Virus record (IMG/VR): IMGVR_UViG_2529293139_000012 | Length of the DNA: 12,539 nucleotides | From: a virus | Taxonomy: Duplodnaviria > Heunggongvirae > Uroviricota > Caudoviricetes | Reading direction: 5' to 3' (one strand) | Shown here: piece after piece, positions 1-12,539 of the stretch | How positions within the stretch are numbered: the first letter of the stretch is position 1 | Layout: the number at the start of each line of letters is the position of its first letter | The notes under the pieces: generated by a model | Seen by the model: only the letters and a program-made list of their open reading frames with translations | Told to the model about the DNA's origin: nothing | The model's database searches: none | Position numbers and translations under genes: made by a program

Positions 1-687
1 CTAATAGCCAGGGATACCACCTTCTATATCTTTACTGATCTTCGCTCGTATATCAGCAGAGGGATAATCCAGGTCATTTTTACCACTACCCCCAATTCCC
101 ATAAAGTTAAAGGTATAATCAGGAATGATATCGATACCAAATTTTTTAGCATCTTTAACCAATGCAATAAAATCCTGCAAATCTCCCATTGGATTATGGA
201 TGGTACAAAGATCTTCGGGTTGATAAGCATGAAACCAGTAACCCTTTTCTTCTTCGGGAGTTTCTGGTCCGTCGGCGCGGAAAGTTGTCACTGGAGGGAT
301 TTGTATATACCCATAATGGCAACGTGCAAATTCAGACATATTTTCTCTGATCTGCTGGTAGGTGGCATTAAAAGCATGAAGAATCGCTTCGCCAGGTTTT
401 TTGGGGGTGATGATTTCACATTGTGATTTCTGAACAGCAGTAAGAGATTTACGCTCAAGTGTTTGCCGTAGATGTTCTAGATTGATTAATATTTTAAATG
501 TTTCTTGCTGTCCGGAAGGTGACGTCACGTTAATATTATATACATCGGCTGCCAGCTCATAGTCAGGAATGTTAATAGCATATGCAACATATTTATCTTT
601 TGGGGAAGGTTTGTCAGATATAATGTGGGTGAAATGTTCAGCACGACCATACTGATAAACACCGCTGTTATCACCTCTTTCAATCAT
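1..687 (-). CDS. Hypothetical protein, C-terminus truncated by window start; central region loosely resembles a glycoside hydrolase family 13 (alpha-amylase-like) fold
   Basis: Open minus-strand frame of 228 codons running off position 1; start ATG at 685-687, 18 nt after the stop of the upstream ORF. Segment 'GDLQDFIALVKDAKKFGIDIIPDYTFNF' has the layout of GH13 region I but lacks the canonical NH. AT-rich codon usage. Confidence 0.4.
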   Translation of the reverse strand: MIERGDNSGVYQYGRAEHFTHIISDKPSPKDKYVAYAINIPDYELAADVYNINVTSPSGQQETFKILINLEHLRQTLERKSLTAVQKSQCEIITPKKPGEAILHAFNATYQQIRENMSEFARCHYGYIQIPPVTTFRADGPETPEEEKGYWFHAYQPEDLCTIHNPMGDLQDFIALVKDAKKFGIDIIPDYTFNFMGIGGSGKNDLDYPSADIRAKISKDIEGGIPGY

Positions 688-705
688 TGTATCTCGTTGA
701 TAAGC

Positions 706-1038
706 CTATGTTTTTCTTTCTCCTATCCTGTCTGGCGCTGTAATGCTACGCTGTGCTGCTTTATTCAACTCTCGGTAAGTTGTATCTGGAGAAAGGGAAA
801 TTTTATAATCGTTTTTTAACAGATCATTAATAACTTTTTCTGCGTGAAAAGTTGATATAATTTCTCTGTCTTTTAATCCTTGAGGGTAAACTCCACAAGA
901 ATTAATAATATTTGTTATACAGTTTAGATATTCTAATGTATTTAATTTGGAATTTAGATCCCCGTCAGTAATGTTCCATGATAACAATGTGGGGTTGTCG
1001 ATAGGTAAATTTCTGGGTCCTGGTTTTATAGAAAACAT
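706..1038 (-). CDS. Hypothetical protein (110 aa), first gene of an AT-rich two-gene operon
   Basis: ORF with GAGGA Shine-Dalgarno about 10 nt upstream of the ATG at 1036-1038; stop 18 nt before the next ORF start. No recognisable motif. Confidence 0.45.
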   Translation of the reverse strand: MFSIKPGPRNLPIDNPTLLSWNITDGDLNSKLNTLEYLNCITNIINSCGVYPQGLKDREIISTFHAEKVINDLLKNDYKISLSPDTTYRELNKAAQRSITAPDRIGERKT

Positions 1039-1597
1039 AATAAAGTTCCTCTAATGGTAGAGTAATATGATGTATACGGAAACATAAAAATGTTTAATTG
1101 TTGTGAAAGTAATTGCAAACAGATGTCCTACTTTTATCCAATATTTATATGGAAAAGGATAATGCTTAAATCTGTTTTATTAATTATCGATGTGGTCTGG
1201 AGAGGCAACTGTCAAAAATCGCTCATACGAAACTAATGATTAGCAGAATAAGATCTATGAAAGAATATATTGCTATACGAAGTTTATTTTTATGGAGTGA
1301 AAAGTAACAGATATCATAATGATGCGAAAACTCTTCAGCTAATGTAATAAAGTTATATTATTAGATACAAAATCATTACAAAGTATCATTGAATCGATGA
1401 TAACTATAGATAGTGCTAATTATTAACATTTGCTTGTTGACTGCGAGTATCGACTTTGCGAATGGAGGCGGTGTCGGGTTTTATGTCGCGTGTAATCACG
1501 ACCCAAGGTGAATGGGAACGCATAAAAATCTGTTATTTACATCATATGATCATCATGTTTATTGCGTGGTTTATAAGTATTGTTATTGCACACTCAA

Positions 1598-1673
1598 GGC
1601 CCTTTAGCTCAGTGGTTAGAGCAGGCGACTCATAATCGCTTGGTCGTTGGTTCAAACCCAACAGGGGCCACCA
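1598..1673 (+). tRNA. tRNA with CAU anticodon, most similar to enterobacterial tRNA-Ile2 (lysidine-CAU, ileX/ileY-like); elongator tRNA-Met not excluded
   Basis: 76 nt, GGCCCTTTAGCTCAGTGGTTAGAGCAGGCGACTCATAATCGCTTGGTCGTTGGTTCAAACCCAACAGGGGCCACCA. Acceptor stem GGCCCTT/AGGGGCC pairs, anticodon loop CT-CAT-AA, T-loop TTCAAAC, encoded CCA. D-arm and anticodon arm match E. coli tRNA-Ile2 as I recall it; T-arm differs. Confidence 0.9.
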
Positions 1674-1681
1674 TATCTATC

Positions 1682-1719
1682 AAGGGGTTACGTTAACAGC
1701 GTGACCCCTTCGTTTTTTC
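1682..1719 (+). terminator. Rho-independent terminator after the tRNA
   Basis: Imperfect hairpin AAGGGGTTACG / CGTGACCCCTT followed by a T6 run (cgttttttc). Confidence 0.6.
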
Positions 1720-2056
1720 TAGGATACCTATAGGATACCGTGACAGAGTATAAGCAGGTATAAAAACAACAAGTTACGCAACATCATACCTGTCATGAAA
1801 CTTTAACTATCCGACATGATAGCTGGTCGATGATCACGGATAATCCGTTATGTGGATCCCCATATCGGCATCAGGCCCACCAGCGTGAAGCGTTTTTCAT
1901 TTTTCGCGGGTATAAAAAATCGATGGGGCTGGCAGTCCGGAAGACGTCAGGGTACAGAGATTTGCCCCGCCCCTCCCTGTGCATGGGCACAATAAGTAAC
2001 CGAAGGCGGAATTCCTCCCTCGGTACTCACATATGAGAAACGATATTTCTTCCTCT

Positions 2057-2131
2057 GATACCCAAAATATGGGTATCACAAGTAACCCCCAAAATCTGGG
2101 TGTTGCTCTTACTACCCAAACTACGGGTAGT
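2057..2131. repeat. Array of three dyad-symmetric ~21 bp sites spaced 27 bp centre to centre (candidate cosB-like or integrase/regulator binding sites)
   Basis: Site 1 GATACCCA-AAATA-TGGGTATC (perfect 8 bp arms, 2057-2077); site 2 AACCCCCA-AAATC-TGGGTGTT (2084-2104); site 3 ACTACCCA-AACTA-CGGGTAGT (2111-2131). Related GGATACC half-sites also occur in tandem at 1721-1739. Confidence 0.6.
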
Positions 2132-2150
2132 TTCCGTAATTTCATGGTCG

Positions 2151-2168
2151 AGTTGCAGATCTGCAACT
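2151..2168. repeat. 18 bp perfect palindrome AGTTGCAGATCTGCAACT
   Basis: Exact inverted repeat read directly from the sequence, in non-coding DNA about 20 bp from the three-site array. Confidence 0.7.
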
Positions 2169-2214
2169 CACCCACCAGCCAACGCAATTTTGCGTTATCG
2201 GGAATATCAGCAAG

Positions 2215-2502
2215 TTACCGCCGCAGCCGTTCCGGCTTCTTCCACTGGTAAGTATTTTTCGCGCTCTCCCTCCGTTGTTGAGAACGGCGACGGTATGCCA
2301 GCAACTCAAGGACTCTTGTTCGTATGTTGCGCATATCCACGCCGTTAAGCTCAATACCGTCACGGAGCATCACCTCAGCCACCACACGCGCGTAATTTTC
2401 AGCGGTGACTGTATCCGGCTGCGCGGCCTGTTCGTCAGCCAACTGGCTGATTCCACCAGCACAGCGGATTAATCGCAGTATTTCAGATTCGGTCATTATC
2501 AT
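2215..2502 (-). CDS. Hypothetical protein (95 aa), translationally coupled to the small terminase gene
   Basis: Its ATG overlaps the TGA stop of the upstream gene in an ATGA arrangement at 2499-2502. No recognisable motif. Confidence 0.5.
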   Translation of the reverse strand: MIMTESEILRLIRCAGGISQLADEQAAQPDTVTAENYARVVAEVMLRDGIELNGVDMRNIRTRVLELLAYRRRSQQRRESAKNTYQWKKPERLRR

Positions 2503-2984
2503 GCCTGTTTTGCGACCTCATTCACTACGTCATTTTTTACCATCCGGCTGATAATCTGATTACGCAAATCGTCAATAATTGACTGCACTCTGTTTACTGC
2601 CATCGGTTTAAGCCCGGCATCACGTGCCAGAATATTGGGGAGTTTTGCCAGTTCCTCGCTTACGATTTCCCCCCATATAGCCATCTCTTTTCGCACATCA
2701 TCGGCGGGTATGAGTTGCGCCGTTTCCTGTTCGAACCTGAGGCGCTCACGTTCGGACTGATACCAGGCCTTACGGTCATGTGGCTCCATTTCTTCCAGTG
2801 ATGCCGGAACGGGAAGATCAAGAAAACAGGTCAGAATGTCAGTCACCCGATAGAGTTTTAGCTTGTCATGCCCTCCGGCTGGCTGGATGTTTTTCAGCCT
2901 TGCCGCCGCAGTCTGACGACATATTCCCGCTATCGCCGCCAGTTGATTAATGTTCAGCATCAGATTTTTCAGTTCTCGATCCAT
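2499..2984 (-). CDS. Nu1-like terminase small subunit (possible Rpp-type packaging-redirection protein)
   Basis: Start taken at ATG 2982-2984 (MDRELKNL) with GGAG Shine-Dalgarno 7 nt upstream; the longer ORF-track form from 3071 lacks a ribosome binding site. N-terminal HTH 'LNINQLAAIAGICRQTAAARL' followed by a GG..K..LY motif parallels lambda Nu1 (VNKKQLADIFGASIRTIQNW...GGGKG..LY) as recalled. Confidence 0.7.
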   Translation of the reverse strand: MDRELKNLMLNINQLAAIAGICRQTAAARLKNIQPAGGHDKLKLYRVTDILTCFLDLPVPASLEEMEPHDRKAWYQSERERLRFEQETAQLIPADDVRKEMAIWGEIVSEELAKLPNILARDAGLKPMAVNRVQSIIDDLRNQIISRMVKNDVVNEVAKQA

Positions 2985-3137
2985 ACCCGCTCCAGAATGT
3001 TTTAAACATGCATCTTGCGAACAACTTTCAGAAGAGGTCAAAAAATGCGCTATATGTTGAGCATAAAACAAGCAAAATTAACATGCCAAAAATAAAAATA
3101 CTTAAAATTCAATACAATAGAAAGATGATGATGACGA

Positions 3138-3220
3138 ATGAAAATGCAAAAACTAGCTTTTTCCGCGCCGTTCCCGCCCCGTGGCAGGCCACCTCACCGG
3201 GAGGACCCACCCAAAAAAGG
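3138..3220. repeat. Copy 1 of a GC-rich ~75-80 bp conserved non-coding element, upstream of the small terminase operon
   Basis: Near-identical to 6487-6560 (ATGAAAATGCAAAAAC.AGC.TTTTTCCGCGCCGTTCCCGCCCCGTGGCAGG.CAC..CACCGGGAGGACCCA). The plus-strand ORFs over the two copies share nucleotides but diverge in frame after about 5 codons, so the conservation is not protein-coding. Confidence 0.75.
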
Positions 3221-3254
3221 CGACTGTCACTATTGTTTATGCTCCATGAGCGAC

Positions 3255-3276
3255 AAAACCGCCCGCAGGCGGTTTT
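3255..3276. terminator. Bidirectional rho-independent terminator downstream of the gpI-like gene
   Basis: AAAA-CCGCC-cgca-GGCGG-TTTT: perfect 5 bp GC stem flanked by A4 and T4. Confidence 0.6.
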
Positions 3277-3293
3277 ACATAAAACGTTTTGTA

Positions 3294-3965
3294 TCAGCGA
3301 CCAATCACCACAATCTGGCCGCCATCCCCTTCATCTGCCGTGCTGATCTCTTGCGAAATCACCCGCGACCCGACGCGCATTTCACCGTACAGAACAGGCA
3401 GAACATTGCCCTGGGCAACCATGTTATCCAGTGAGGAGAAATAGGTGTTCTGCTTACCGTTATCCGTTGTCTGTGTACGGGGAGTTCTGGCTTTCGGTGC
3501 CAGCATCTGCGCCACACCACCGAGCACCATACTGGCACCGAGAGAAAACAGGATGCCGGTCATACCACCGGCCCCAATGGCTGCCCCCCATGCTGCAAGG
3601 GTGGCTCCGGCGGTAAAGAATGATCCGGCAATGGCGGCAGCCCCCAGGACAATCTGGAATACGCCACCTAACTTGGCCCCGGCGACTCTGGGAACAATAT
3701 GAATCACAGCGCCATCAGGCAGAGTCTCATGTAACTGCGCCGTTAACCCGGACGTGCTGACGTCCCGCCCGGCAATCCGTACCTGATACCAGCCGTCGCT
3801 CAGTTTCTGACGAAACGCCGGGAGCTGTGTGGCCAGTGCCCGGATGGCTTCAGCCCCCGTTTTCACACGAAGGTCGATGCGGCGACCAAATCGTTGTAAA
3901 TCCCCGTAAAGGCAGATGCGTGCCATGCCCGGTGACGCCAGAGGGAGTGTGTGCGTCGCTGCCAT
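3294..3965 (-). CDS. Lambda gpI-like tail assembly protein (223 aa)
   Basis: Intact ORF with purine-rich stretch upstream of the ATG. N-terminal 'MAATHTLPLASPGMARICLYGDLQRFGRRIDLRVKTGAEAIRALA', a Gly/Ala-rich hydrophobic middle and C-terminal '...VVIGR' match my recollection of lambda tail assembly protein I. It is flanked by a capsid gene and a terminator rather than K and J homologs. Confidence 0.65.
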   Translation of the reverse strand: MAATHTLPLASPGMARICLYGDLQRFGRRIDLRVKTGAEAIRALATQLPAFRQKLSDGWYQVRIAGRDVSTSGLTAQLHETLPDGAVIHIVPRVAGAKLGGVFQIVLGAAAIAGSFFTAGATLAAWGAAIGAGGMTGILFSLGASMVLGGVAQMLAPKARTPRTQTTDNGKQNTYFSSLDNMVAQGNVLPVLYGEMRVGSRVISQEISTADEGDGGQIVVIGR

Positions 3966-4054
3966 TTGTCGGTATACCTCTCTCGTTTGCTCAGTTGTTC
4001 AGGAATATGGTGCGGCAGCTCGCCGCCCCACGTGTTCAAAGTACCGCCTTGTTG

Positions 4055-5968
4055 TCATGCTCCATTCGATTTCAGCAATCCACGATAATCGAGGGCCGCG
4101 ACACCTGCATCTATGCGCACCTTCCAGGCGACACCATCAACAGTAAAGCCCACCTGCTCCTCAAGATATGGCGTATCCATACCATCAAGATAAGCGACTT
4201 CTATTGTGTCCATCCCCTTAGCTGCGGCTACATACCATTCCTTGCTATTGGCCTTATCAAGACGTGGCTCAACAATTACTTCTGCCATATCTTTCACAAC
4301 GTTAATGATGCCGGGGTTCTGATTGATAGTGCCCTCATCACCAACCGGAAAGACTGATGACGATGACAGAATGGCGCGACGCGCGGCAGATTCCAGCGCG
4401 GCAGGGACCAGAACAAAAGCAGGGGTAATATTCAGTGAGTCGCCGTTAGCATCCTCCTGGAGGCGCATCAGCTTACGGGCTTCATCAAGCCCCACCATGT
4501 CCATATCCTTCGCAATAAGATTTTTATGATCGGCATGGAATAACGCTTTACCATCCGTAAACTTGCCGTTGCTGGTTAACAGGAGATAAACCAGATTGCC
4601 AACTGTTCTGGCGGCTGCGCGTCCCATCGCCATGGGGATTGTAGTTAACTGGGTCAGGTCATCGTTGATAATGGCCTGACGGGTAACGGAGAAAATATTC
4701 CCGTACGTGGCCAGCGCAATAGGTACACCTTTATCGCTGGTGGTGATGTATTTATATTCCGCACCTTCCGGTACTTTATCCAGCTTTGAAAAACCATTCA
4801 GACCAACGCGCTTTGCTTCATGAAAGTTTGAAAGCGAACCGGTACGCGTCCATTTCTGGAACGTTTCGCCGCTGTCCTGCCAGCCTTTCAGTACAGATTT
4901 TTCAGCCCCACCAGCCAGAATATGAGAAAAATCACTGCTGCTGTGTGTAAAAGCCGCATTAACAACCTGCGAGCGATTAATAAAACCACTCACAGTGATA
5001 CCACGATCAACCAGTGATGCCTGGGCCATTTCAAAAAGGCTCATCATCGCGTAAGGGTTGCCTCGTTCAGGGCGTTCATACCCAAGACGGGAATAAAGCC
5101 CCTGACGAATTGCATCACCTGTTATGTTTCCGTTTCCGGCATAGATATGAGCCGGGGTATTTTTATTGGATGGCGTGGACTCGCGCCCCAGCTCGTTCAA
5201 CAGCTTTTCACGGGCCATTTCCGGTGTACATGATGCATCTTCCAGACACGCCATTTTGATCCCGTCGTAACGACTGCCGAACAGGCTAAACACTTCACTT
5301 ATTCCATTGATGCGTTTCTGTTCATTACCAGCAATATTTGCCGCTCCCTGTGGCGGTGTAATCATTCCTTTAATGGTTTCCGGCATATGTAAAAAATCTC
5401 CTGTGCGCTTCGATTCAATTCGCGCCATTGCTCTGACGGATGGCAACAATTCATCAGCAAAACCGTGCTTAAGGCATTCTTTCCCGTCCATCCAGGTTTC
5501 ATCTTCCAGCATGGCGGTAATTTCCTGTGCTGATTTGCCCGTTTTTCTGGCATAAGCAGGGACTAACACGGTTTCCACCTTATCCAGCAAATCAGCATAA
5601 TCACGCATATCACCAGCATTTCCGCCAGAGATACCCCACGGCTTATGTATCATCATCATGGCGTTTTCCGGCATCACAACACGATCGCCAGCCATTGCGA
5701 CCACCGAAGCCATTGAAGCCGCAACACCATCGATATAAACCGTAATGTCTGCCGGATGATTCCGTAGCAGGTTATAGATGGCGATGCCTTCAAACACATC
5801 ACCACCTGGTGAATGGATCCTCAGATTGATATGTGAAACATCGCCAAGGGCTTTCAGGTCTTCCGCGAACTGCTTTGCAGTAACACCGAAGCCGCCAATC
5901 TCCTCATAGATAGATATATCCGCCGCTCCGCGAACATCCGCCGCCTTAATGGTGTACCAGCGATTCAT
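4055..5968 (-). CDS. Fusion of ClpP-like (S14) prohead protease with a major-capsid-like domain (637 aa)
   Basis: N-terminal ~200 aa carry ClpP-type motifs (IYEEIGGFG, HSPGGDVFEGIAIYNLL, IDGVAASMASVVAMAGDRVVMPENAMMMIHKPW). The remaining ~430 aa look like a phage major capsid domain, possibly Mu gpT-like; the family cannot be fixed without a search. Confidence 0.75.
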   Translation of the reverse strand: MNRWYTIKAADVRGAADISIYEEIGGFGVTAKQFAEDLKALGDVSHINLRIHSPGGDVFEGIAIYNLLRNHPADITVYIDGVAASMASVVAMAGDRVVMPENAMMMIHKPWGISGGNAGDMRDYADLLDKVETVLVPAYARKTGKSAQEITAMLEDETWMDGKECLKHGFADELLPSVRAMARIESKRTGDFLHMPETIKGMITPPQGAANIAGNEQKRINGISEVFSLFGSRYDGIKMACLEDASCTPEMAREKLLNELGRESTPSNKNTPAHIYAGNGNITGDAIRQGLYSRLGYERPERGNPYAMMSLFEMAQASLVDRGITVSGFINRSQVVNAAFTHSSSDFSHILAGGAEKSVLKGWQDSGETFQKWTRTGSLSNFHEAKRVGLNGFSKLDKVPEGAEYKYITTSDKGVPIALATYGNIFSVTRQAIINDDLTQLTTIPMAMGRAAARTVGNLVYLLLTSNGKFTDGKALFHADHKNLIAKDMDMVGLDEARKLMRLQEDANGDSLNITPAFVLVPAALESAARRAILSSSSVFPVGDEGTINQNPGIINVVKDMAEVIVEPRLDKANSKEWYVAAAKGMDTIEVAYLDGMDTPYLEEQVGFTVDGVAWKVRIDAGVAALDYRGLLKSNGA

Positions 5969-6174
5969 TGTTCCCCCACCGATGCAAAACCATTCTGATT
6001 AAGCCAGGTGTTTACGGCATGTCTGACAATCTGCGCCACACCTGGTAATGGTTGGTCAGGATGATGATTTATATGGTCGATCCTGTACTGCTTAAGGCGC
6101 ATAACGGTCTGCGCATCCAGATGAACGGAACCACCTCTGGTATCACCTGTGTTCAGGTCATTAATACAACTCAC
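5965..6174 (-). CDS. Small hypothetical protein (69 aa), translationally coupled to the protease-capsid gene
   Basis: GTG start with GAGGAAG Shine-Dalgarno upstream; its stop overlaps the downstream start by 4 nt. Confidence 0.45.
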   Translation of the reverse strand: MSCINDLNTGDTRGGSVHLDAQTVMRLKQYRIDHINHHPDQPLPGVAQIVRHAVNTWLNQNGFASVGEQ

Positions 6175-6273
6175 AGCAACTTCCTCTGACTGACTAAACT
6201 ATGCACATTATTGATCGATAAAAGTGGTAAATAAACATATTTCTATCATAAAAACAGATTAATTAGATTCAGA

Positions 6274-6299
6274 CACAAAAAAGCCGGAGAAAATCCGGC
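6274..6299 (-). terminator. Rho-independent terminator on the minus strand, upstream of the capsid operon
   Basis: GCCGGA-gaaaa-TCCGGC hairpin followed on the minus strand by TTTTTTGTGT. Confidence 0.65.
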
Positions 6300-6486
6300 A
6301 TAAATATCCCGCCATCTGAACACGTTTTGACACAGGCAACTCCACCTGGCAGGTGAAAAACAGATTTATTTATATATTTCAATTAATTGCAAACTGGTCT
6401 AATGACAGGGAGAAAAAAATATTGTACAGGTGAAAACAGAAATAACTTTTAATTATCAATAAATTATCACACATGCTGCCGCCGCC

Positions 6487-6560
6487 ATGAAAATGCAAAA
6501 ACCAGCCTTTTTCCGCGCCGTTCCCGCCCCGTGGCAGGTCACTACACCGGGAGGACCCAT
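6487..6560. repeat. Copy 2 of the GC-rich conserved non-coding element, upstream of the capsid operon
   Basis: Aligns with 3138-3220 over about 75 nt with a handful of substitutions and a 1 nt indel. Confidence 0.75.
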
Positions 6561-6582
6561 AAAAAAGCCGGATTGCTCCGGC
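6561..6582 (-). terminator. Rho-independent terminator on the minus strand, between the putative ori and repeat copy 2
   Basis: GCCGGA-ttgc-TCCGGC hairpin followed on the minus strand by T6. Confidence 0.6.
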
Positions 6583-6713
6583 TTCTGTTACTCGTTGCTT
6601 AAAACGGTATGTTATCCCCGTACGGATCATCATTCCCCGCCTGTTGTTTTGGTGTGCTTCGCTGTCATAGGCTTTATCTCACAGCAGTAAATTAAAATTT
6701 TTGCGTTTTAACC

Positions 6714-6941
6714 CTTCACCTGTTCACCTTTTGATATTTTCTCTTTTAATTCATAATGTTAAGGGGTGAGCAGTTTCACAAAAACTATTCACCAACTGTT
6801 CACCACTGTTCACCCTTGAAGCTCAATAAACAATCAAAAAGGTGAACAGTGAATAGTTTGGTGAACAGTTCATAAATAACTGTTCACCCTATAATATACT
6901 GATATAAAAGATATTTATGACAGGGTGAACAGTGGTGAACA
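6714..6941. repeat. Iteron cluster, putative replication origin
   Basis: At least nine copies of the 8-mer GGTGAACA / TGTTCACC in both orientations (6721, 6797, 6807, 6841, 6860, 6881, 6924, 6934, plus degenerate copies) flanking an AT-rich core (ctgatataaaagatatttatga), directly 3' of the primase-helicase gene. Related CAGGTGAAAA(A)CAG motifs at 6350 and 6427. Confidence 0.65.
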
Positions 6942-6955
6942 GTTATTCCATAAGT

Positions 6956-8731
6956 TTAATTTTTGCTATCGTCATTAGTGACCGATACACATGATGGCAT
7001 CCAGTCTTCTGATTCCTCCGTCAGTGTCACGTTTGAACGCAAACCGTGCTTCGTTTTCCGTTTCATATACTCCCTGCCATATTCCGCCATTGCCCCCGGC
7101 ATATCTTTACCGAAGCGCGTCAGTGTTACAGGTTTACCAAACCCATGTGCCCTCATATAAGCCAGATAGGCATGATAGAGATACCTGCGTGGGCTGAATG
7201 GCACAATTTCAGCATTACCCACTAACAGGCCATCACACATTACCGACGCCATGAGATAGCCGCAGAAGTCCACCAGCGAATCCCCCTCTCGCTTTATCGC
7301 CAGTGCTTCTTCAGATTTCTGCTGCTCATATAACAGGCGTCTGGCTTCGTCCTGGTCAGCAAACCGTGTAAGCAGATGGCGAATCACTACCGCCAGCTCA
7401 CCTTCTATTTTTTCCGCCAGCATTGGATCGCGTTCGTTCTCCGGTACAACTTCCGAAAAATTGAATATCACCCGACGACGTGAGATCCCCCCGCTGCGGT
7501 CACTGAATGACATGGCGTTATTGTTAACCGCCAGCACTACTGCCGGAATACGCGTTGAGTAGGGGGCTTTGTGTTTCGGATCAATTGCCACCTTGTCACC
7601 GCCTGTAATGGCCTTAATTCCTGCCCCATCACCAGCGTAGCGGGTCATATCCGGCATGATAATCAGCGAAAAGCCAACCACTAACGCGCGTTCCCTTGCA
7701 TCTTCCAGCGCCTTCATGCTTGCCGATACTGTGTTGGCCTTACCCGCCAGCATGGTGCAAATCTCCGCCATCACGCTTTTACCACTTCCCCCTGGACCTG
7801 TTACCTCAATGAATAACTGCCAGTCGTACCGGTTCGCCAGCACCATGAATAATGCAGCCAGTACGCGATCCGCCTTGCGGTCATTCTCAGCCACCGAACG
7901 GCGTAACCACTTCCAGAAATTCGGCGCATGTGTTGCCAGCGTTTCCCCCTCTGCTGGTGGGCTGAAAGGTAATTCACTGGCAATTAACAACCAGTCGTTT
8001 TTGTTATGCTCCCGAAAATTACCTGTTCTGGTATCAAATACCCCGTTACTGAATCCAATCAGGTTACGGGCTGTATTCCCCATAACAGGCAAACTTAACT
8101 TCATGGTATCGACCGCCGATTTAATGGCGTTCTGCGAATAGCTGATCTCCGCATCAATGAAAATCTGTGCCATAGCTCGCTGTAATTCTTTATCCTGTAC
8201 TGGCTCCCATACAACGCCGTTGTAATGGTGAACAGTGTCAGAGTCAGCATGAATCGCCAGTTCACCGCCATAATGTGCCAGGAGAACTTCGCCGCGTTGA
8301 CTTGCTCCCATCTGGTTAAGCGCCAGTGATGAAGCGTTATCGTCTTTTACCCGCTCTTTTTTCTTTACAGGCAGTTCAACTACCTTTTTCTTTTCCGCCA
8401 GCTCTGCCCGTTCACGTTCCAGATATTCGCGCCAGTTCTCCCGTTTCTGGCTGTGCATTCCTTCAGGGTAATAATCAGCATCCCTGACACCTGCCTCTGC
8501 CAGTTTCTGCCCGATGGTATTAACAAGCCCCGGACGCAATAACCCCGCCTGATAGAGACGCACGCGATAGCGTCCGTCCGGTACGATTTGCAGGTTGTCC
8601 AGTTCGGCAAGTTGTTGCTCTCCAAGCCAGACAGGTGGCACGTTATCGCCAGCCAGTCGCCCGTCCTGTTCCTGCCACTGATTCGCATGTGCCCACGCAT
8701 CACTACCCGCAAAAATGATGACTTCCGTCAT
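6956..8731 (-). CDS. Phage/plasmid primase P4-family C-terminal domain helicase (D5-like NTPase), putative replication initiator Pri-Rep (591 aa)
   Basis: Walker A 'VTGPGGSGKS' with the surrounding D5_N-like region (NFWKWLRR...YDWQLFIEVTGPGGSGKSV...VIFNF); the gene is followed immediately by the iteron cluster. Confidence 0.8.
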   Translation of the reverse strand: MTEVIIFAGSDAWAHANQWQEQDGRLAGDNVPPVWLGEQQLAELDNLQIVPDGRYRVRLYQAGLLRPGLVNTIGQKLAEAGVRDADYYPEGMHSQKRENWREYLERERAELAEKKKVVELPVKKKERVKDDNASSLALNQMGASQRGEVLLAHYGGELAIHADSDTVHHYNGVVWEPVQDKELQRAMAQIFIDAEISYSQNAIKSAVDTMKLSLPVMGNTARNLIGFSNGVFDTRTGNFREHNKNDWLLIASELPFSPPAEGETLATHAPNFWKWLRRSVAENDRKADRVLAALFMVLANRYDWQLFIEVTGPGGSGKSVMAEICTMLAGKANTVSASMKALEDARERALVVGFSLIIMPDMTRYAGDGAGIKAITGGDKVAIDPKHKAPYSTRIPAVVLAVNNNAMSFSDRSGGISRRRVIFNFSEVVPENERDPMLAEKIEGELAVVIRHLLTRFADQDEARRLLYEQQKSEEALAIKREGDSLVDFCGYLMASVMCDGLLVGNAEIVPFSPRRYLYHAYLAYMRAHGFGKPVTLTRFGKDMPGAMAEYGREYMKRKTKHGLRSNVTLTEESEDWMPSCVSVTNDDSKN

Positions 8732-8770
8732 TTTGTCACGCGGCTGGTGTTTTAAATTTGGCGCTTTTTT

Positions 8771-9064
8771 TCATTTCTGCTCTCTCCACGCGGCAATCAT
8801 GTTTTTCAGTTCCTGTAGTTTTTTATCCACACGTGACACATGGTTATTTCTGGAAGTCGGGATTTCCCGCCGGAATCTGCAAATAAAGATCTCCACGTTC
8901 AGCGAACTAAGAAATGAATATCCATCACGGATAAAATAAACACGGTCAAACATCAGTTCTTTTACCGTTACTCTGTTACCGTTCTTATCCAGATAAATAG
9001 CGCCGGGGATAATTTTGGGGTGTGCATAACCGCTGGCAGTCAAGCCAGATAAATATGTTCTCAT
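8771..9064 (-). CDS. Hypothetical protein (97 aa)
   Basis: ORF in the co-oriented gene string upstream of the primase-helicase gene; no recognisable motif. Confidence 0.4.
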   Translation of the reverse strand: MRTYLSGLTASGYAHPKIIPGAIYLDKNGNRVTVKELMFDRVYFIRDGYSFLSSLNVEIFICRFRREIPTSRNNHVSRVDKKLQELKNMIAAWREQK

Positions 9065-9070
9065 GATTAT

Positions 9071-9391
9071 TTATCCCCGATTTGAATCAGTATTCGCTTT
9101 CTTTATGGCATTTAATGCATCTGTGGCATTTTCAATGGTGCACCGTAACGAAATATCAAACTGCCCAAGCATTGCCAGTAACAAACCGATATTACCCATA
9201 TCAATGCGCATGGCCTTTTCGTCATAGTCCTCATTTTCTGACGCATGCCACATCAGGCTACCAATTGACGCAACAGCCATTGATATATTGTCAGTAGCCC
9301 CATCAGCAGCGGAATAAACCTTTTTAGCAATATCATGCTCACAGTTAAAATGCGGATTAATCAGGTACTGGTAATTTGACATATCAGGCAT
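9071..9391 (-). CDS. Hypothetical protein (106 aa)
   Basis: ORF with AGGGGG Shine-Dalgarno about 8 nt upstream of the ATG; its start overlaps the stop of the preceding ORF by 8 nt. Confidence 0.45.
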   Translation of the reverse strand: MPDMSNYQYLINPHFNCEHDIAKKVYSAADGATDNISMAVASIGSLMWHASENEDYDEKAMRIDMGNIGLLLAMLGQFDISLRCTIENATDALNAIKKANTDSNRG

Positions 9392-9587
9392 GGCACACCC
9401 CCTGACGAATACGGGCGGCGAATACCATCACGTAGCCAGCCGGGGATTGCTGGCGTGCTTCCTGTTCGCTGGTGGCCTCAATGGTAATCACGCGCGGTTG
9501 TGCCGTGCTCAGGGCGATAAAACGCCAGATGTATTTATTCAGGTCGTGCGAGTACCGCCCTTGCGGGTGTGTGGTATGATTTAACAT
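9384..9587 (-). CDS. Hypothetical protein (67 aa), first gene of the leftward small-ORF and primase string
   Basis: Start taken at ATG 9585-9587 with GAGGT Shine-Dalgarno 5 nt upstream. The longer 221-aa ORF-track form would run antisense through the divergent gene and operators. Confidence 0.45.
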   Translation of the reverse strand: MLNHTTHPQGRYSHDLNKYIWRFIALSTAQPRVITIEATSEQEARQQSPAGYVMVFAARIRQGVCHA

Positions 9588-9688
9588 AGCTACCTCGATA
9601 CTATCGTTATCGTTGGTGGTTAGAAGCCCGGTTAGTGTTCCCGCACTACCGGGCTTCGCTGTATTTAATGGTTGCGTATTTTTAATGC

Positions 9689-9731
9689 GGTACGTACCAT
9701 TTAATTTCAGTTTATAACGATGGTACGTACC
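9689..9731. promoter_or_regulatory. Pair of 10 bp perfect palindromes GGTACGTACC (putative operators) in a divergent promoter region
   Basis: Exact copies at 9689-9698 and 9722-9731, 33 bp centre to centre, between the start of the 67-aa minus-strand ORF and the plus-strand small ORF. Confidence 0.55.
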
Positions 9732-9732
9732 A

Positions 9733-9915
9733 ATGCAAGAAGAAAATGTGAAACCAAAATTTGATCGCTCCGGCAGCACAAAGAAAAACATCCGCTTCGA
9801 AGACACATTGTTGCAACAAATTAACGAAGTTGCTGGGCCTGGTAATTTCAGCTCATGGGTAAAAAATGCTTGTCGTGATAAGCTACGCAAAGAAGGCATA
9901 GAACCCAAAGGCTGA
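9733..9915 (+). CDS. Small putative regulatory/DNA-binding protein (60 aa), possibly YlcI/YnfO (DUF3950)-like
   Basis: The only plus-strand gene in the island; followed by a plus-strand terminator and preceded by the operator pair. 'NIRFEDTLLQQINEVAGPGNFSSWVKNACRDKL' resembles the DUF3950 pattern as recalled (low certainty). Weak ribosome binding site. Confidence 0.45.
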   Translation: MQEENVKPKFDRSGSTKKNIRFEDTLLQQINEVAGPGNFSSWVKNACRDKLRKEGIEPKG

Positions 9916-10009
9916 CAGCCAACCAGCAAGCCAGCACACTGATCACATTGCCCACCAGCCGCAAATGTGGCATTGTTGGTGATGCGTTCAAGTTTAGTGT
10001 GTATCCATT

Positions 10010-10038
10010 GGCGACCGCCCCCGGTCGCCTTTGTTTTA
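10010..10038 (+). terminator. Rho-independent terminator for the plus-strand small gene
   Basis: GGCGACCG-cccc-CGGTCGCC hairpin followed by TTTGTTTTA. Confidence 0.6.
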
Positions 10039-10055
10039 TGTGCCATCACTCCCCC

Positions 10056-10265
10056 TTACACCGTCTGCGTTCTGCGAGTGGATGCAAGATAAGCATCGAG
10101 ATCAGTGCGCATATACAGCACTTTGCGACCAAGCTTATGGAAAGGGATTTTTACCTTGCCAGTACACGCCCAGTTCGCCAGTGTTTGATTGTTAACGCCA
10201 AGGTAGGCAGCAGCTTCAGCACGTGTAAGGCGGTCAGTTGATAAATCAGATTTCTTTAAATTCAT
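10056..10265 (-). CDS. AlpA/excisionase-family HTH DNA-binding protein (about 69 aa)
   Basis: Start taken at ATG 10263-10265 (MNLKKSDL); the ORF-track form starts 3 codons earlier at a GTG. HTH 'LTRAEAAAYLGVNNQTLANWACTGKVKIPFHKLGRKVLYMRTDLDAYL' has the Xis/AlpA architecture. Confidence 0.6.
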   Translation of the reverse strand: MNLKKSDLSTDRLTRAEAAAYLGVNNQTLANWACTGKVKIPFHKLGRKVLYMRTDLDAYLASTRRTQTV

Positions 10266-10407
10266 ATCTATCACCGTGTACGTCTAAGTAACAACGGTGA
10301 TAAATATCAATCAATGAGTATTTTGTTTTTAGCCCAATAGCCAGTTGCTGTGGGGCTGTTACCAGTTATTTAGCCTCAATAGCCAGCTATTAAAATACCG
10401 TAGCCAG

Positions 10408-11133
10408 CTATTGGGGGTGAACAAGCTCAAACGAAGAGTATTTATCAGGCTTTGGTGGTTGTGCCCCTGATTCTTTAATCCATCTATCTAGCGTGTTTTT
10501 ACTTACTTTCCCATGGTAGTAAACAGAAAGCTCGTTCAATAAACCTGTTTTACTGGCTTTAGGGTACTTTTCCCATGTTAGTTTAATTACGTGCATAACT
10601 TCATTGTAATAATGATTTCTTGGTTTGCGCGCTTTTTCTTTCTGTGATAAGGATAAAGCATCCTTTATTTTTTTATCTTTTTCATGGTTCGATATAATTT
10701 CTTCAAAAAAATCATTAAGCAATAACTCAACACCAACTCTAGTAAGTTTGTCTGCGTGATTACGCATTCCGACATGGTACAATGCAACTGCTGAATTTAA
10801 AGTATCGACAACCTGACAAGATAGTTTACTATCAAATATTAAAAAACCACACGAATCAATTTTTGCAGCTAATTCAATAGGATATTGCTCGATTTCACTT
10901 GATTCTAAACCATAACACAAAAGAAATTCTCTTGTTGGATATTTTGATTTATAAAAATAATCTCTTATATCATCAATCAAGCGTTTTATAGCCTCTATGG
11001 TGGAGTTTCTCGGGGATAAAGATACAGGAACGTTTAAAACTGAAGATTCTCGCCCACCAGTAATTAAATCATTCATAACCGAATAAATAATATATTGTTT
11101 GACCGATATATTGTTATCATCCATATATGTCAT
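10408..11133 (-). CDS. AT-rich hypothetical protein (241 aa), candidate accessory/cargo gene
   Basis: ORF overlapping the integrase 3' end by 17 nt. Visibly much more AT-rich than the island genes on either side, with Lys/Asn/Ile/Tyr-rich codon usage. No recognisable catalytic motif; the C-terminus (KNTLDRWIKESG) may be HTH-like. Confidence 0.55.
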   Translation of the reverse strand: MTYMDDNNISVKQYIIYSVMNDLITGGRESSVLNVPVSLSPRNSTIEAIKRLIDDIRDYFYKSKYPTREFLLCYGLESSEIEQYPIELAAKIDSCGFLIFDSKLSCQVVDTLNSAVALYHVGMRNHADKLTRVGVELLLNDFFEEIISNHEKDKKIKDALSLSQKEKARKPRNHYYNEVMHVIKLTWEKYPKASKTGLLNELSVYYHGKVSKNTLDRWIKESGAQPPKPDKYSSFELVHPQ

Positions 11134-12539
11134 TCTTTTCTTGTACTATAGCAAATAGTAAACGACGTTTTTCATCATCACTCATGCCCTCCAGTGCGGA
11201 AAGCAATTGCGCATCGATAGATTTTTTACTCTCCACCAGCCCGGCATGTTCCTGAATTGCCCGTTCTATCCGTGACGCTGGCTCCAGCAATTCATCAGCA
11301 CCAAAATGTAAATACCCCTGCGTTACGTCAGCACTTCGCATAGTACGGTGATTCATCAGGCGCTTGAGGATGTAATTGCCCACGCCCACCAGTTCGGCAA
11401 CCGTTCCGAACGTCCGGCGCGCATCGTGCCATTTGAATGGTACAGGGGAGAGCATTTCATCGTTCGACTCTGAAACGGTAGCCGCGCTTATCCGGTCTAT
11501 GATGTGCCGTGTCTCCTGAATAACGCCCTTCACACCAGGAAACACCAGCACATCATCAGCAGCTTTGTTTTTTAGCCTGCGAAGAAACATTTTCCGCAAC
11601 GTATCAGTGATCGGCAGTTCAAGCGGATCCCCGTTTTTCGTGGTGTCTATCCAGAAAAAAACGACCGCCCATATTCACGCGATCCCACGTAAGGCCAAAA
11701 ATTTCTGATTTCCTCAGTCCGGTAAAAAGCGCCATTTCCACGGCATCGCATACCGTCACCGCTATATCATCCCTTTCCTGTTCGCCCTGGTCGCGCACAG
11801 CAGCTACAGCAGCAAACCAGCGGGGAAAATCATGCAGGCGGATACGTTCCGTTTTTCTTACCGTTCCGTGCCACTGGCGCTTGGTGCTCAGTACCAGAGT
11901 CGGCGGATCCGGTAAAAGAGTATTACCCGCATCATCACGGTAATGATCATGCGCAAACCGACACACAGCACGTAGCGCACGCGCCCATAAATCGGCCTGT
12001 GCCTTGCTTCCTGTACCAACCCCAGCCCGTAACGTGGTTTTATCAGCACCGAACCATACAGCCCCATCAGTGATGGCCTTATGCCGTTGTTCCACCCGTT
12101 CGCGGGAAATACTGGCGAGGGTATGGGCCATCCAGTCACCGGAATAATTCTGTAATATGCTGCGGTACTGTTTTTCTGTGGCGGGTTTCAGGCGGTGGCC
12201 ACGATTTTTTACGTAGGCGTCAATCGCCTCACTCAGCGTTATCATGGCCTTGTTGTTAGTGCGCTTTGCTATGTTCGGATTTATCCCCGTTGTGGCGACT
12301 TCGCCAAGGAGTTCCATAGCTTTAGCCCTGGCATTATCCACGCTCAGATCAGGAAAACGCCCCAGCGTTGCACGAATAAATTTTCCGTTACGCTTACGGG
12401 AAATGCAGAAACTTTTCACACCAGACGAACCTACACGGACACGCAGCCCGTTAACCTCCGTATCACCATATTCGACCTGTCCATGTTCCGGCGTTGGCAG
12501 TTCTGCAATTTTTACTTTAGAGAATCTGAATAATTTCAC
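11117..12539 (-). pseudogene. Tyrosine site-specific integrase (P4-like family), interrupted by a frameshift in an A7 run at 11655-11661; N-terminus runs off the window
   Basis: The 306-aa upstream frame carries the first Arg box (TGLRKSEIFGLTWDRV); the 160-aa downstream frame carries HDARRTF and the catalytic Tyr region (RSADVTQGY). Removing one base from the homopolymer joins them as ...GRFFWIDTTKNGDPLELPITDTLRKMFLRRLK.... Confidence 0.85.

What the first reader, a model, noticed from the sequence alone, without database searches (positions are those of the whole stretch)
11655..11661. Integrase frameshift in an A7 homopolymer
The integrase frame breaks at a 7-base run, and deleting one base restores a continuous protein with all catalytic motifs. 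This is either an assembly error, a phase-variable switch, or a recent inactivation that would leave the island unable to excise or integrate alone.
Basis: seen in the sequence. Interest (0 to 1): 0.5.

Follow-up and report, generated by a model that had tools for sequence, protein, structure and literature searches.

The report
Probable sequencing-error frameshift in satellite integrase
The broken integrase gene is real in this draft assembly, but the extra base is found in no other copy of the gene and is most likely a sequencing miscall in a run of identical bases, so the finding is ordinary.

Summary
Window 11655-11661 is an A7 run (T7 on the coding minus strand). It splits a P4-type tyrosine integrase into a 306-aa N-terminal ORF and a C-terminal part in the +1 frame. 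Removing one base gives a 473-aa protein identical to WP_000765554.1, which is intact in many complete E. coli genomes.

The window comes from the 2011 draft assembly of E. coli E1520 (GCA_000190815.1). The A7 allele is private to that assembly:
- 0 of 85 complete E. coli genomes with this gene carry it.
- 0 of 14 metagenome contigs carry it.
- All 26 independent copies fetched have A6 (23) or A5G (3).
- The truncated protein occurs on one contig among about 15 billion proteins.

A second private 6-to-7 homopolymer insertion lies 2.9 kb away, just after the primase start codon (0 of 462 genomes). The island has no private substitutions.

This pattern best fits homopolymer base-calling error (about 0.68). 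A genuine recent inactivation stays possible (about 0.27). Phase variation and programmed recoding are not supported, because the tract is short, invariant in length and not conserved at the nucleotide level. Interest is low.

The parts
11655..11661 (-). T7 homopolymer on the coding strand (A7 on +). It is one base longer than the T6 (or C+T5) found in all other copies, and it is the site of the frame break at codons 293-295 (R-F-F).
11619..12539 (-). N-terminal integrase ORF as assembled (306 aa; GenBank EGB31979.1). It holds the arm-binding and core-binding regions plus catalytic Arg276 only, and ends in 11 out-of-frame residues (LDRHHEKRGSA) and a stop.
11117..11674 (-). C-terminal integrase coding sequence, now in the +1 frame. 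It contains K301, H371, R374, H397 and Y409. The gene caller reports a 157-aa ORF (11117-11590) with no Pfam hit on record.
11117..12539 (-). Whole integrase gene. Apart from the extra base it is 100% identical in nucleotides to the intact 1422-nt gene of E. coli L73 (WP_000765554.1, 473 aa).
8765..8771 (-). Second private homopolymer +1: T7 on +, A7 on the coding strand, versus 6 in 462 genomes. It lies directly after the primase ATG (8774-8772) and shifts the frame at codon 4. The annotated primase therefore starts at an internal ATG (591 instead of 605 aa).
6956..8774 (-). D5_N/Pox_D5-type primase gene of the island, affected by the second indel.
1598..1677 (+). tRNA-Ile2 gene (anticodon CAT; ARAGORN calls it Met) containing attL. 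The att repeat spans 1628-1677 and has a 19-nt core identical to attR (ACTCATAATCGCTTGGTCG). attR lies 181 bp beyond the window end.
1678..12539 (-). Body of the ~11.1-kb integrated phage-satellite-like island, which continues 180 bp beyond the window to attR. Genes: terS-like DUF1441, tail-assembly-I-like, ClpP-protease/major-capsid fusion, primase, DUF4222, Icd-like/repressor, excisionase-like HTH, a 238-aa unknown, and the integrase.

Best explanation
The A7 is a one-base over-call of an A6 homopolymer in the 2011 draft assembly of E. coli E1520 (GCA_000190815.1, scaffold GL871773.1). In the organism the gene is most likely the intact 473-aa P4-type tyrosine integrase (identical to WP_000765554.1). 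This integrase inserts an ~11-kb PICI-like phage satellite into the 3' half of tRNA-Ile2 genes.

Shown: the frame break, its exact coincidence with the only difference from intact copies, its privacy to one assembly, and a second private 6-to-7 homopolymer insertion nearby.

Inferred: that the cause is flow-based (454-type) base calling rather than mutation. My recollection that Broad Institute E. coli drafts of that date were 454/Newbler assemblies could not be verified with the tools.
For: 1. Source and privacy. The truncated 306-aa protein is EGB31979.1 'integrase [Escherichia coli E1520]'. It occurs on exactly one contig in the ~15-billion-protein collection, as does the truncated primase.

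2. No other A7 allele. None was found in 85 complete E. coli genomes carrying this region; every listed row spans 71 of the 72 query bases and none reaches 99% identity. The exact A7 pattern was absent from metagenome and species-representative contigs. With a variable gap, 14 of 14 metagenome contigs have the 6-nt run. The independent copies fetched show A6 x23 and A5G x3, with A7 only in E1520.

3. Indel signature. Over 12.5 kb the window differs from strain L73 at three sites only. Two are +1 insertions in 6-nt A/T runs, both breaking genes that are intact elsewhere. The third is a substitution for which L73 carries the stop codon. The primase T7 is absent from 462 genomes. So the island has two private homopolymer insertions and no private substitution. 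That is the error signature of flow-based sequencing rather than the usual substitution-dominated divergence.

4. No other decay. Apart from the extra base, the integrase is nucleotide-identical to copies annotated as intact at two different tRNA-Ile2-associated loci, and the island is flanked by intact att repeats.

5. Provenance context. Australian strains named in the same style as E1520 were downloaded from the Broad Institute's E. coli antibiotic-resistance genome site (PMC4422515).
Against: No reads or platform metadata could be inspected. The 454 attribution rests on memory.

In 14.5 kb of flanking chromosomal backbone (26 runs of at least 6 bases) there is no private homopolymer indel. 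The one length difference there is a natural polymorphism shared with more than 200 genomes. Both private indels sit in the island (25 runs). That is what relaxed selection on a decaying element would also produce, although 2/25 versus 0/26 is not significant.

The nearest relative, L73, has a genuine nonsense mutation in the island's terS-like gene. Real decay of this island in this lineage is therefore happening.

Other strains carry frameshifted copies of this integrase at other positions: GF4, and Escherichia sp. HH154_1D.
Confidence: 0.68

Rival explanations
1. The extra A is a genuine, recent, strain-private slippage mutation (A6 to A7). It truncates the integrase after Arg276 and removes K301, H371, R374, H397 and Y409. 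Together with a genuine frameshift at primase codon 4, it would leave the satellite unable to excise, integrate or replicate on its own. This would be ordinary decay or immobilisation of a mobile element.
For: Homopolymer runs are the natural hot spots for spontaneous single-base indels (established knowledge). Both private indels lie in the island and none in 14.5 kb of flanking backbone. The sister strain L73 carries a nonsense codon in the island's terS-like gene, and GF4 and HH154_1D carry other integrase frameshifts, so inactivation of this element occurs in nature.
Against: The allele is seen in one draft assembly only, among more than 100 copies. Two private +1 events in 6-nt A/T runs with zero private substitutions is an unusual spectrum for real divergence in a mismatch-repair-proficient background. 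The gene shows no other sign of decay. Only 1 of the 40 listed complete-genome copies has a span that indicates a frameshift (GF4, annotated frameshifted), so the prior for two independent private frameshifts in one island is low.
Confidence: 0.27
2. The run is a phase-variable contingency tract. Reversible slipped-strand mispairing would switch the integrase, and hence satellite mobility, ON (A6) and OFF (A7) at a useful frequency.
For: The frame break is in a homopolymer, and a single-base change restores function within a 59-nt window bounded by stops in the two frames. A second length change in a homopolymer lies at the start of the primase gene.
Against: Tract length does not vary among strains: 6 nt in all other copies. 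The tract itself is not conserved. A synonymous CGT-to-CGC change shortens it to T5 in GF4, and the same A5G state occurs in 3 of the 26 fetched copies, so selection acts on the R-F-F-W peptide and not on a slippery tract. Six to seven bases is shorter than the tracts (about 8 or more) of known contingency loci (established knowledge). No OFF allele other than E1520's exists.
Confidence: 0.03
3. The two-frame arrangement is a programmed recoding site. Transcriptional slippage on U7, or +1 ribosomal frameshifting, would produce both a truncated DNA-binding protein and a full-length integrase.
For: Homopolymeric A/T runs support RNA-polymerase slippage in bacteria, and IS transposases use this for expression (PMC5009743). 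Some low-level restoration of the frame on a U7 tract is conceivable if the allele is real.
Against: A recoding site should be conserved, yet every homologue encodes the integrase in a single frame. Documented bacterial slippage sites cited in the review use runs of about 9 A/T. No stimulatory element was looked for or is needed to explain the data.
Confidence: 0.02

Closest known systems
Homopolymer-length miscalls of flow-based sequencing (454/Ion Torrent) producing artificial frameshifts in draft bacterial genomes
   Same: Single-base insertion in an A/T run of at least 6 bases. It is private to one draft assembly and splits a gene that is intact and otherwise nucleotide-identical elsewhere. 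A second event of the same kind lies 2.9 kb away.
   Different: The platform and reads of E1520 could not be checked here. No such indel was seen in 14.5 kb of adjacent backbone.
P4-type (Arm-DNA-bind_3 / DUF4102 + Phage_integrase) tyrosine integrases of enterobacterial tRNA-associated islands and satellites
   Same: Domain architecture. R-K-H-R-H-Y residues in the restored protein. Integration into the 3' half of a tRNA gene with a duplicated att core. The identical protein is found at two tRNA-Ile2-associated loci.
   Different: As assembled, the ORF lacks five of the six catalytic residues. There is no detectable sequence match to any solved recombinase. The gene lies at the island end distal to the tRNA.
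Enterobacterial PICI / cf-PICI phage satellites (SatelliteFinder definitions, PMC10085698)
   Same: Size of ~11 kb. Integrase, AlpA-like/excisionase HTH, primase-replicase, terS-like gene and a capsid-related gene, all in one orientation and flanked by att repeats.
   Different: It carries a lambda tail-assembly-I-like gene. Tail components are 'forbidden' in the PICI model. It lacks the portal, head-tail connector and adaptor, and terL genes that define cf-PICI. SatelliteFinder itself was not run.
Phase-variable homopolymeric contingency loci and slippage-based recoding sites
   Same: A frameshift located in a homopolymer that could in principle be reversed by slippage.
   Different: There is no length polymorphism among strains, the tract is short, it is not conserved at the nucleotide level, and all homologues are in-frame.

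Membership tests
Tyrosine recombinase / phage integrase (PF00589) with P4-type arm-binding domain | N-terminal Arm-DNA-bind_3 (DUF4102) domain | tested here: met
   PF13356, E 2.5e-13, residues 9-94. Also recorded for the 306-aa fragment.
Tyrosine recombinase / phage integrase (PF00589) with P4-type arm-binding domain | C-terminal catalytic domain matching PF00589 above the gathering score | tested here: met
   Restored protein: 50.6 bits against a cut-off of 27.1, residues 266-403. For the ORFs as assembled, no PF00589 hit is on record for either fragment.
Tyrosine recombinase / phage integrase (PF00589) with P4-type arm-binding domain | Catalytic R-K-H-x-x-R-H/W-Y residues in one polypeptide | tested here: inconclusive
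   All six are present in the one-base-corrected sequence (R276, K301, H371, R374, H397, Y409). They were read against the family consensus rather than against a solved structure (the PDB searches gave no usable alignment). As assembled, only R276 is in the N-terminal ORF.
Tyrosine recombinase / phage integrase (PF00589) with P4-type arm-binding domain | Site-specific integration with duplicated att core | tested here: met
   An ~50-bp att repeat with a 19-nt identical core lies at the tRNA-Ile2 3' half and 181 bp upstream of the integrase start. The empty site is seen in K-12-like loci.
Sequencing (homopolymer) artefact | Indel confined to a homopolymer and absent from all independent sequences of the same gene | tested here: met
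Sequencing (homopolymer) artefact | Further private homopolymer indels in the same assembly | tested here: met
   Primase T7 versus T6 in 462 genomes. However, there are none in 14.5 kb of backbone.
Sequencing (homopolymer) artefact | Flow-based platform, and reads that disagree with or weakly support the consensus | not testable with these tools
   No reads or assembly metadata are available. Literature searches for E1520 gave nothing on the platform.
Phase-variable contingency locus | Tract length polymorphic among strains or populations, with ON and OFF alleles both common | tested here: not met
   The run is 6 nt in 85 complete genomes, 14 metagenome contigs and all 26 independent copies fetched. 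It is 7 nt only in E1520.
Phase-variable contingency locus | Tract maintained by selection (conserved as a repeat) | tested here: not met
   A synonymous CGT-to-CGC change shortens the run to 5 nt in 3 of the 26 copies.
Programmed frameshift / transcriptional slippage gene | Two-frame architecture and shift site conserved in homologues | tested here: not met
   All homologues are single-frame proteins of 473-479 aa.
PICI phage satellite (SatelliteFinder model, PMC10085698) | Core components: integrase, AlpA-type regulator, primase-replicase, capsid-morphogenesis gene, terS homologue | tested here: inconclusive
   Candidates exist for all five by Pfam/PHROG hits, but the SatelliteFinder profiles were not run.
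PICI phage satellite (SatelliteFinder model, PMC10085698) | No tail or lysis genes ('forbidden' components) | tested here: not met
   Window 3294-3965 matches tail assembly protein I (phrog_32, E 4e-83; PF06805).
cf-PICI | Portal, head-tail connector and adaptor, and terL in addition to capsid and protease | tested here: not met
   None of these is among the island's genes.

The most novel reading that the evidence does not exclude
Both private homopolymer frameshifts (integrase codon 294 and primase codon 4) are real. Together they would form a reversible, slippage-mediated double lock that keeps a PICI-like satellite immobile in most cells. Rare A7-to-A6 revertants, or slipped transcripts, would restore excision and replication. 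This would be a bet-hedging control of satellite mobility. The 306-aa arm- and core-binding fragment might also act as an att-site-binding inhibitor.
Probability: 0.03. Interest if true: 0.45.

Novelty: not a real feature. Interest (0 to 1): 0.08.

Why it matters
As it stands this is mainly a data-quality point. The E1520 draft annotates a split integrase (EGB31979.1 plus a 157-aa ORF) and an N-terminally shortened primase. Both are probably artefacts, so surveys of satellite or prophage 'decay' that use such drafts will over-count pseudogenes.

If the base were real, it would be a routine example of a mobile element immobilised by a private frameshift. That would be of local interest only.

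The island itself has some interest independent of the frameshift. It is a widespread satellite-like element that targets tRNA-Ile2 genes and carries a protease-capsid fusion gene.

Tried and rejected
- **Solved-structure mapping.** Sequence searches of the restored integrase and of its catalytic domain against PDB chains gave no significant recombinase hit. The catalytic residues were therefore assigned from the family consensus only.
- **Literature.** Searches for the assembly accession and for strain E1520 found nothing on its sequencing platform. PMC4422515 only confirms that like-named Australian strains are Broad Institute genomes.
- **More E1520 sequence.** Look-ups of common window proteins returned other strains. 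Only the E1520-unique truncated proteins worked, giving 25.6 kb in total.
- **Scans for the A6 allele.** I replaced them with a variable-gap pattern from the window. The species-representative genomes hold no copy at all.
- **Phase variation and programmed recoding.** Considered and rejected because the tract is invariant in length, not conserved in sequence, and every homologue is in-frame.
- **The 73-nt repeat seen in passing.** It has no Rfam match and no fold signal.

Full report
**Observation.** The + strand at 11655-11661 is a run of seven A, flanked by CCAG and CGACC. The gene is on the minus strand, where the run reads CGT TTT TTT CTG. Frame 0 opens at the GTG that is the last codon position of the window (12539). 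It runs 306 codons and stops at 11619-11621, 13 codons after the run. The +1 frame is open from just after a stop at 11675-11677 to the stop at 11117-11119.

Removing one T gives a 473-aa protein with an Arm-DNA-bind_3 domain (E 2.5e-13) and a Phage_integrase domain (E 2.4e-13, 50.6 bits against a cut-off of 27.1). Read against the tyrosine-recombinase consensus, it contains R276, K301, H371-x-x-R374, H397 and Y409. The shift falls at codons 293-295, so the assembled N-terminal ORF keeps only R276. The run itself is unremarkable: the window has 27 runs of at least 6 bases, five of them 7 long.

**What the gene and its surroundings are.** A megablast of the gene region against 5,426 complete E. 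coli genomes found 87 records with a match. The best, strain L73, aligns to the whole 12.5-kb window at 99.976%. In L73 the gene is annotated as an intact tyrosine recombinase, WP_000765554.1, 473 aa.

The window covers the following:
- the end of the ygaQ pseudogene region;
- a tRNA with anticodon CAT, annotated tRNA-Ile, i.e. tRNA-Ile2, at 1598-1673;
- an island whose genes all lie on the minus strand: a 93-aa unknown, a terS-like DUF1441 protein, a lambda tail-assembly-I-like protein, a ClpP-protease/major-capsid fusion, a D5-type primase, DUF4222, an Icd-like/repressor protein, an excisionase-like HTH protein, a 238-aa unknown, and the integrase.

Comparison with an empty site (K-12-like locus L021) places the island between window 1678 and a point 180 bp beyond the window end. 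It is flanked by an ~50-bp repeat of the 3' half of the tRNA, with a 19-nt identical core (ACTCATAATCGCTTGGTCG).

The identical integrase protein also sits next to nfeF in ETEC strains TW10828, ETEC-2264, 90-9280 and NCTC9699, at the end of tandem satellite arrays. So the restored protein is a currently or recently active integrase of an ~11-kb phage-satellite-like element.

**Where the window comes from.** The exact 306-aa truncated protein is encoded on a single contig, GL871773.1 of GCA_000190815.1. GenBank names it 'integrase [Escherichia coli E1520]', EGB31979.1. Australian strains named in the same style were obtained from the Broad Institute's E. coli genome site (PMC4422515). From memory, and not verifiable here, Broad E. 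coli drafts released in early 2011 were 454/Newbler assemblies.

**Is the seventh A found anywhere else?** No.
- A 72-nt query centred on the run matched 85 complete genomes. None reached 99% identity, and every listed row spans 71 bases.
- The exact A7 pattern is absent from the species-representative genomes and from metagenome contigs.
- A variable-gap pattern found 14 metagenome contigs, all with the 6-nt run.
Only the two overlapping fetches of the E1520 contig have A7.
- The A5G state is a synonymous CGT-to-CGC change. The R-F-F-W peptide is conserved but the homopolymer is not.

**The other differences from the nearest relative.** Over the window, E1520 and L73 differ at three positions.
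- At 2764, L73 has a T that creates the internal stop annotated in its DUF1441 gene. E1520 has the intact state.
- At 8765-8771, E1520 has T7 where L73 has T6. On the coding strand this is ATG AAA AAA(A) GCG, directly after the primase start codon. The E1520 primase is therefore annotated from an internal ATG, 591 instead of 605 aa. None of 462 complete genomes sharing this junction has the 7-nt run.
- The third difference is the integrase run.

Extending the comparison to all 25.6 kb of E1520 sequence I could obtain adds two substitutions in the ypjC pseudogene region and one intergenic T7/T8 difference. More than 200 other genomes share the E1520 state at that intergenic site, so it is a natural polymorphism.

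In sum, E1520 has two private single-base insertions. Both turn a 6-nt A/T run into 7, and both break island genes that are intact elsewhere. There is no private substitution in the island.

**Weighing artefact against mutation.** Several points favour an artefact:
- the allele exists in one draft only;
- the spectrum (two homopolymer over-calls, no substitutions) is the signature of flow-based sequencing;
- roughly one consensus error per 10-20 kb at homopolymers is what I recall for such assemblies (from memory, not checked here);
- the integrase shows no other sign of decay.

Other points favour a real mutation:
- homopolymers are also natural indel hot spots;
- both events lie in the island (25 runs of at least 6 bases) and none in 14.5 kb of backbone (26 runs), which is what relaxed selection would give, although this contrast is not significant;
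- the sister strain L73 carries a genuine nonsense mutation in the same island;
- other frameshifted alleles of this integrase exist at other positions: GF4 with a +G, and Escherichia sp. HH154_1D with a shift seven codons downstream.

Among the 40 complete-genome copies listed, only GF4 has a span that indicates a frameshift, and it is annotated as frameshifted. The prior for two independent private frameshifts in one island is therefore low. I put the artefact at about 0.68 and a genuine private inactivation at about 0.27.

**Phase variation and programmed recoding.** A contingency tract should vary in length among strains and be maintained as a repeat. This one is 6 nt everywhere else and is interrupted by a synonymous change in some strains. 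A recoding site should be conserved as a two-frame arrangement, yet all homologues are single-frame proteins of 473-479 aa. The bacterial transcriptional-slippage cases summarised by Atkins et al. use runs of about nine A/T (PMC5009743). If the A7 is real, rare reversion or slipped transcripts could restore the frame anywhere within the 59-nt window between the two stops. That would be leakiness, not a designed switch.

**Consequence if real.** The 306-aa product would keep the arm- and core-binding regions but lack the lysine, both histidines, the second arginine and the tyrosine nucleophile. It could not catalyse recombination. With the primase also shifted at codon 4, the island would depend on an integrase in trans and on an internal primase start. 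This is inference; no part of it was tested.

**Comparison with known things.** The closest match is the well-known class of homopolymer miscalls in early pyrosequencing drafts. The gene is an ordinary P4-type tRNA-targeting integrase.

The island resembles enterobacterial PICI satellites in size, order and core functions. However, it has a tail-assembly-like gene, and tail components are 'forbidden' in the SatelliteFinder PICI model. It also lacks the portal, connector and terL genes that define cf-PICI. I call it PICI-like rather than a member.

**Verdict.** This is most probably not a real biological feature, and interest is low.

Noticed in passing
window 8765-8771 (primase start codon at 8774-8772, minus strand): A second private homopolymer +1: T7 versus T6 in L73 and in all 462 complete E. 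coli genomes sharing this junction. It shifts the primase frame at codon 4. The E1520 annotation starts at an internal ATG (591 instead of 605 aa).
   Followed up: yes
window 3138-3209 and 6487-6559: An ~73-nt direct repeat, about 93% identical. Both copies are intergenic and lie upstream (on the minus strand) of morphogenesis-type genes: the terS-like gene and the protease-capsid fusion. There is no Rfam match and no RNA-fold signal. It may be a shared DNA-level regulatory site such as a late promoter or activator site.
   Followed up: partly
window 1598-1677, and 181-230 bp beyond the window end (E1520 composite 12720-12769): attL lies inside a complete tRNA-Ile2 (CAT) gene whose T-arm reads GTTGG...CCAAC. 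The attR copy reads GCTGG...CCAGC. These are compensatory differences, consistent with one 3' half being island-borne and the other chromosomal. Which copy is the original was not determined.
   Followed up: partly
L001 (strain L73), and L004-L007 (TW10828, ETEC-2264, 90-9280, NCTC9699): The identical integrase protein WP_000765554.1 is found at two chromosomal sites: next to ypjC near ileY, and next to nfeF. At the nfeF site it ends a tandem array with a second satellite. That second satellite has its own integrase, a RepA-type helicase, a HEPN protein and another protease-capsid fusion gene.
   Followed up: partly
window 2764 (L001 position 4666): The only substitution between E1520 and L73 inside the island is a nonsense codon in L73's terS-like DUF1441 gene. 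This shows genuine decay of this island in the sister strain.
   Followed up: partly
window 3294-3965 and 4055-5968: The island carries a lambda tail-assembly-protein-I-like gene and a 637-aa ClpP-protease/major-capsid fusion. It has no portal, connector or large terminase gene. This repertoire fits neither the PICI nor the cf-PICI definition cleanly. The 93-aa protein next to it is listed in 856 blocks of the assembly collection, so the element family is widespread.
   Followed up: partly
P0008 (Escherichia sp. HH154_1D), P0002, L002 (strain GF4): Other truncated or frameshifted alleles of the same integrase exist at different positions. GF4 has a +G about 390 nt downstream of the run (near window 11270). 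HH154_1D has a shift in the AAAAA of T-T-K-N, seven codons after this run. P0002 has an altered end near K-N-K.
   Followed up: partly
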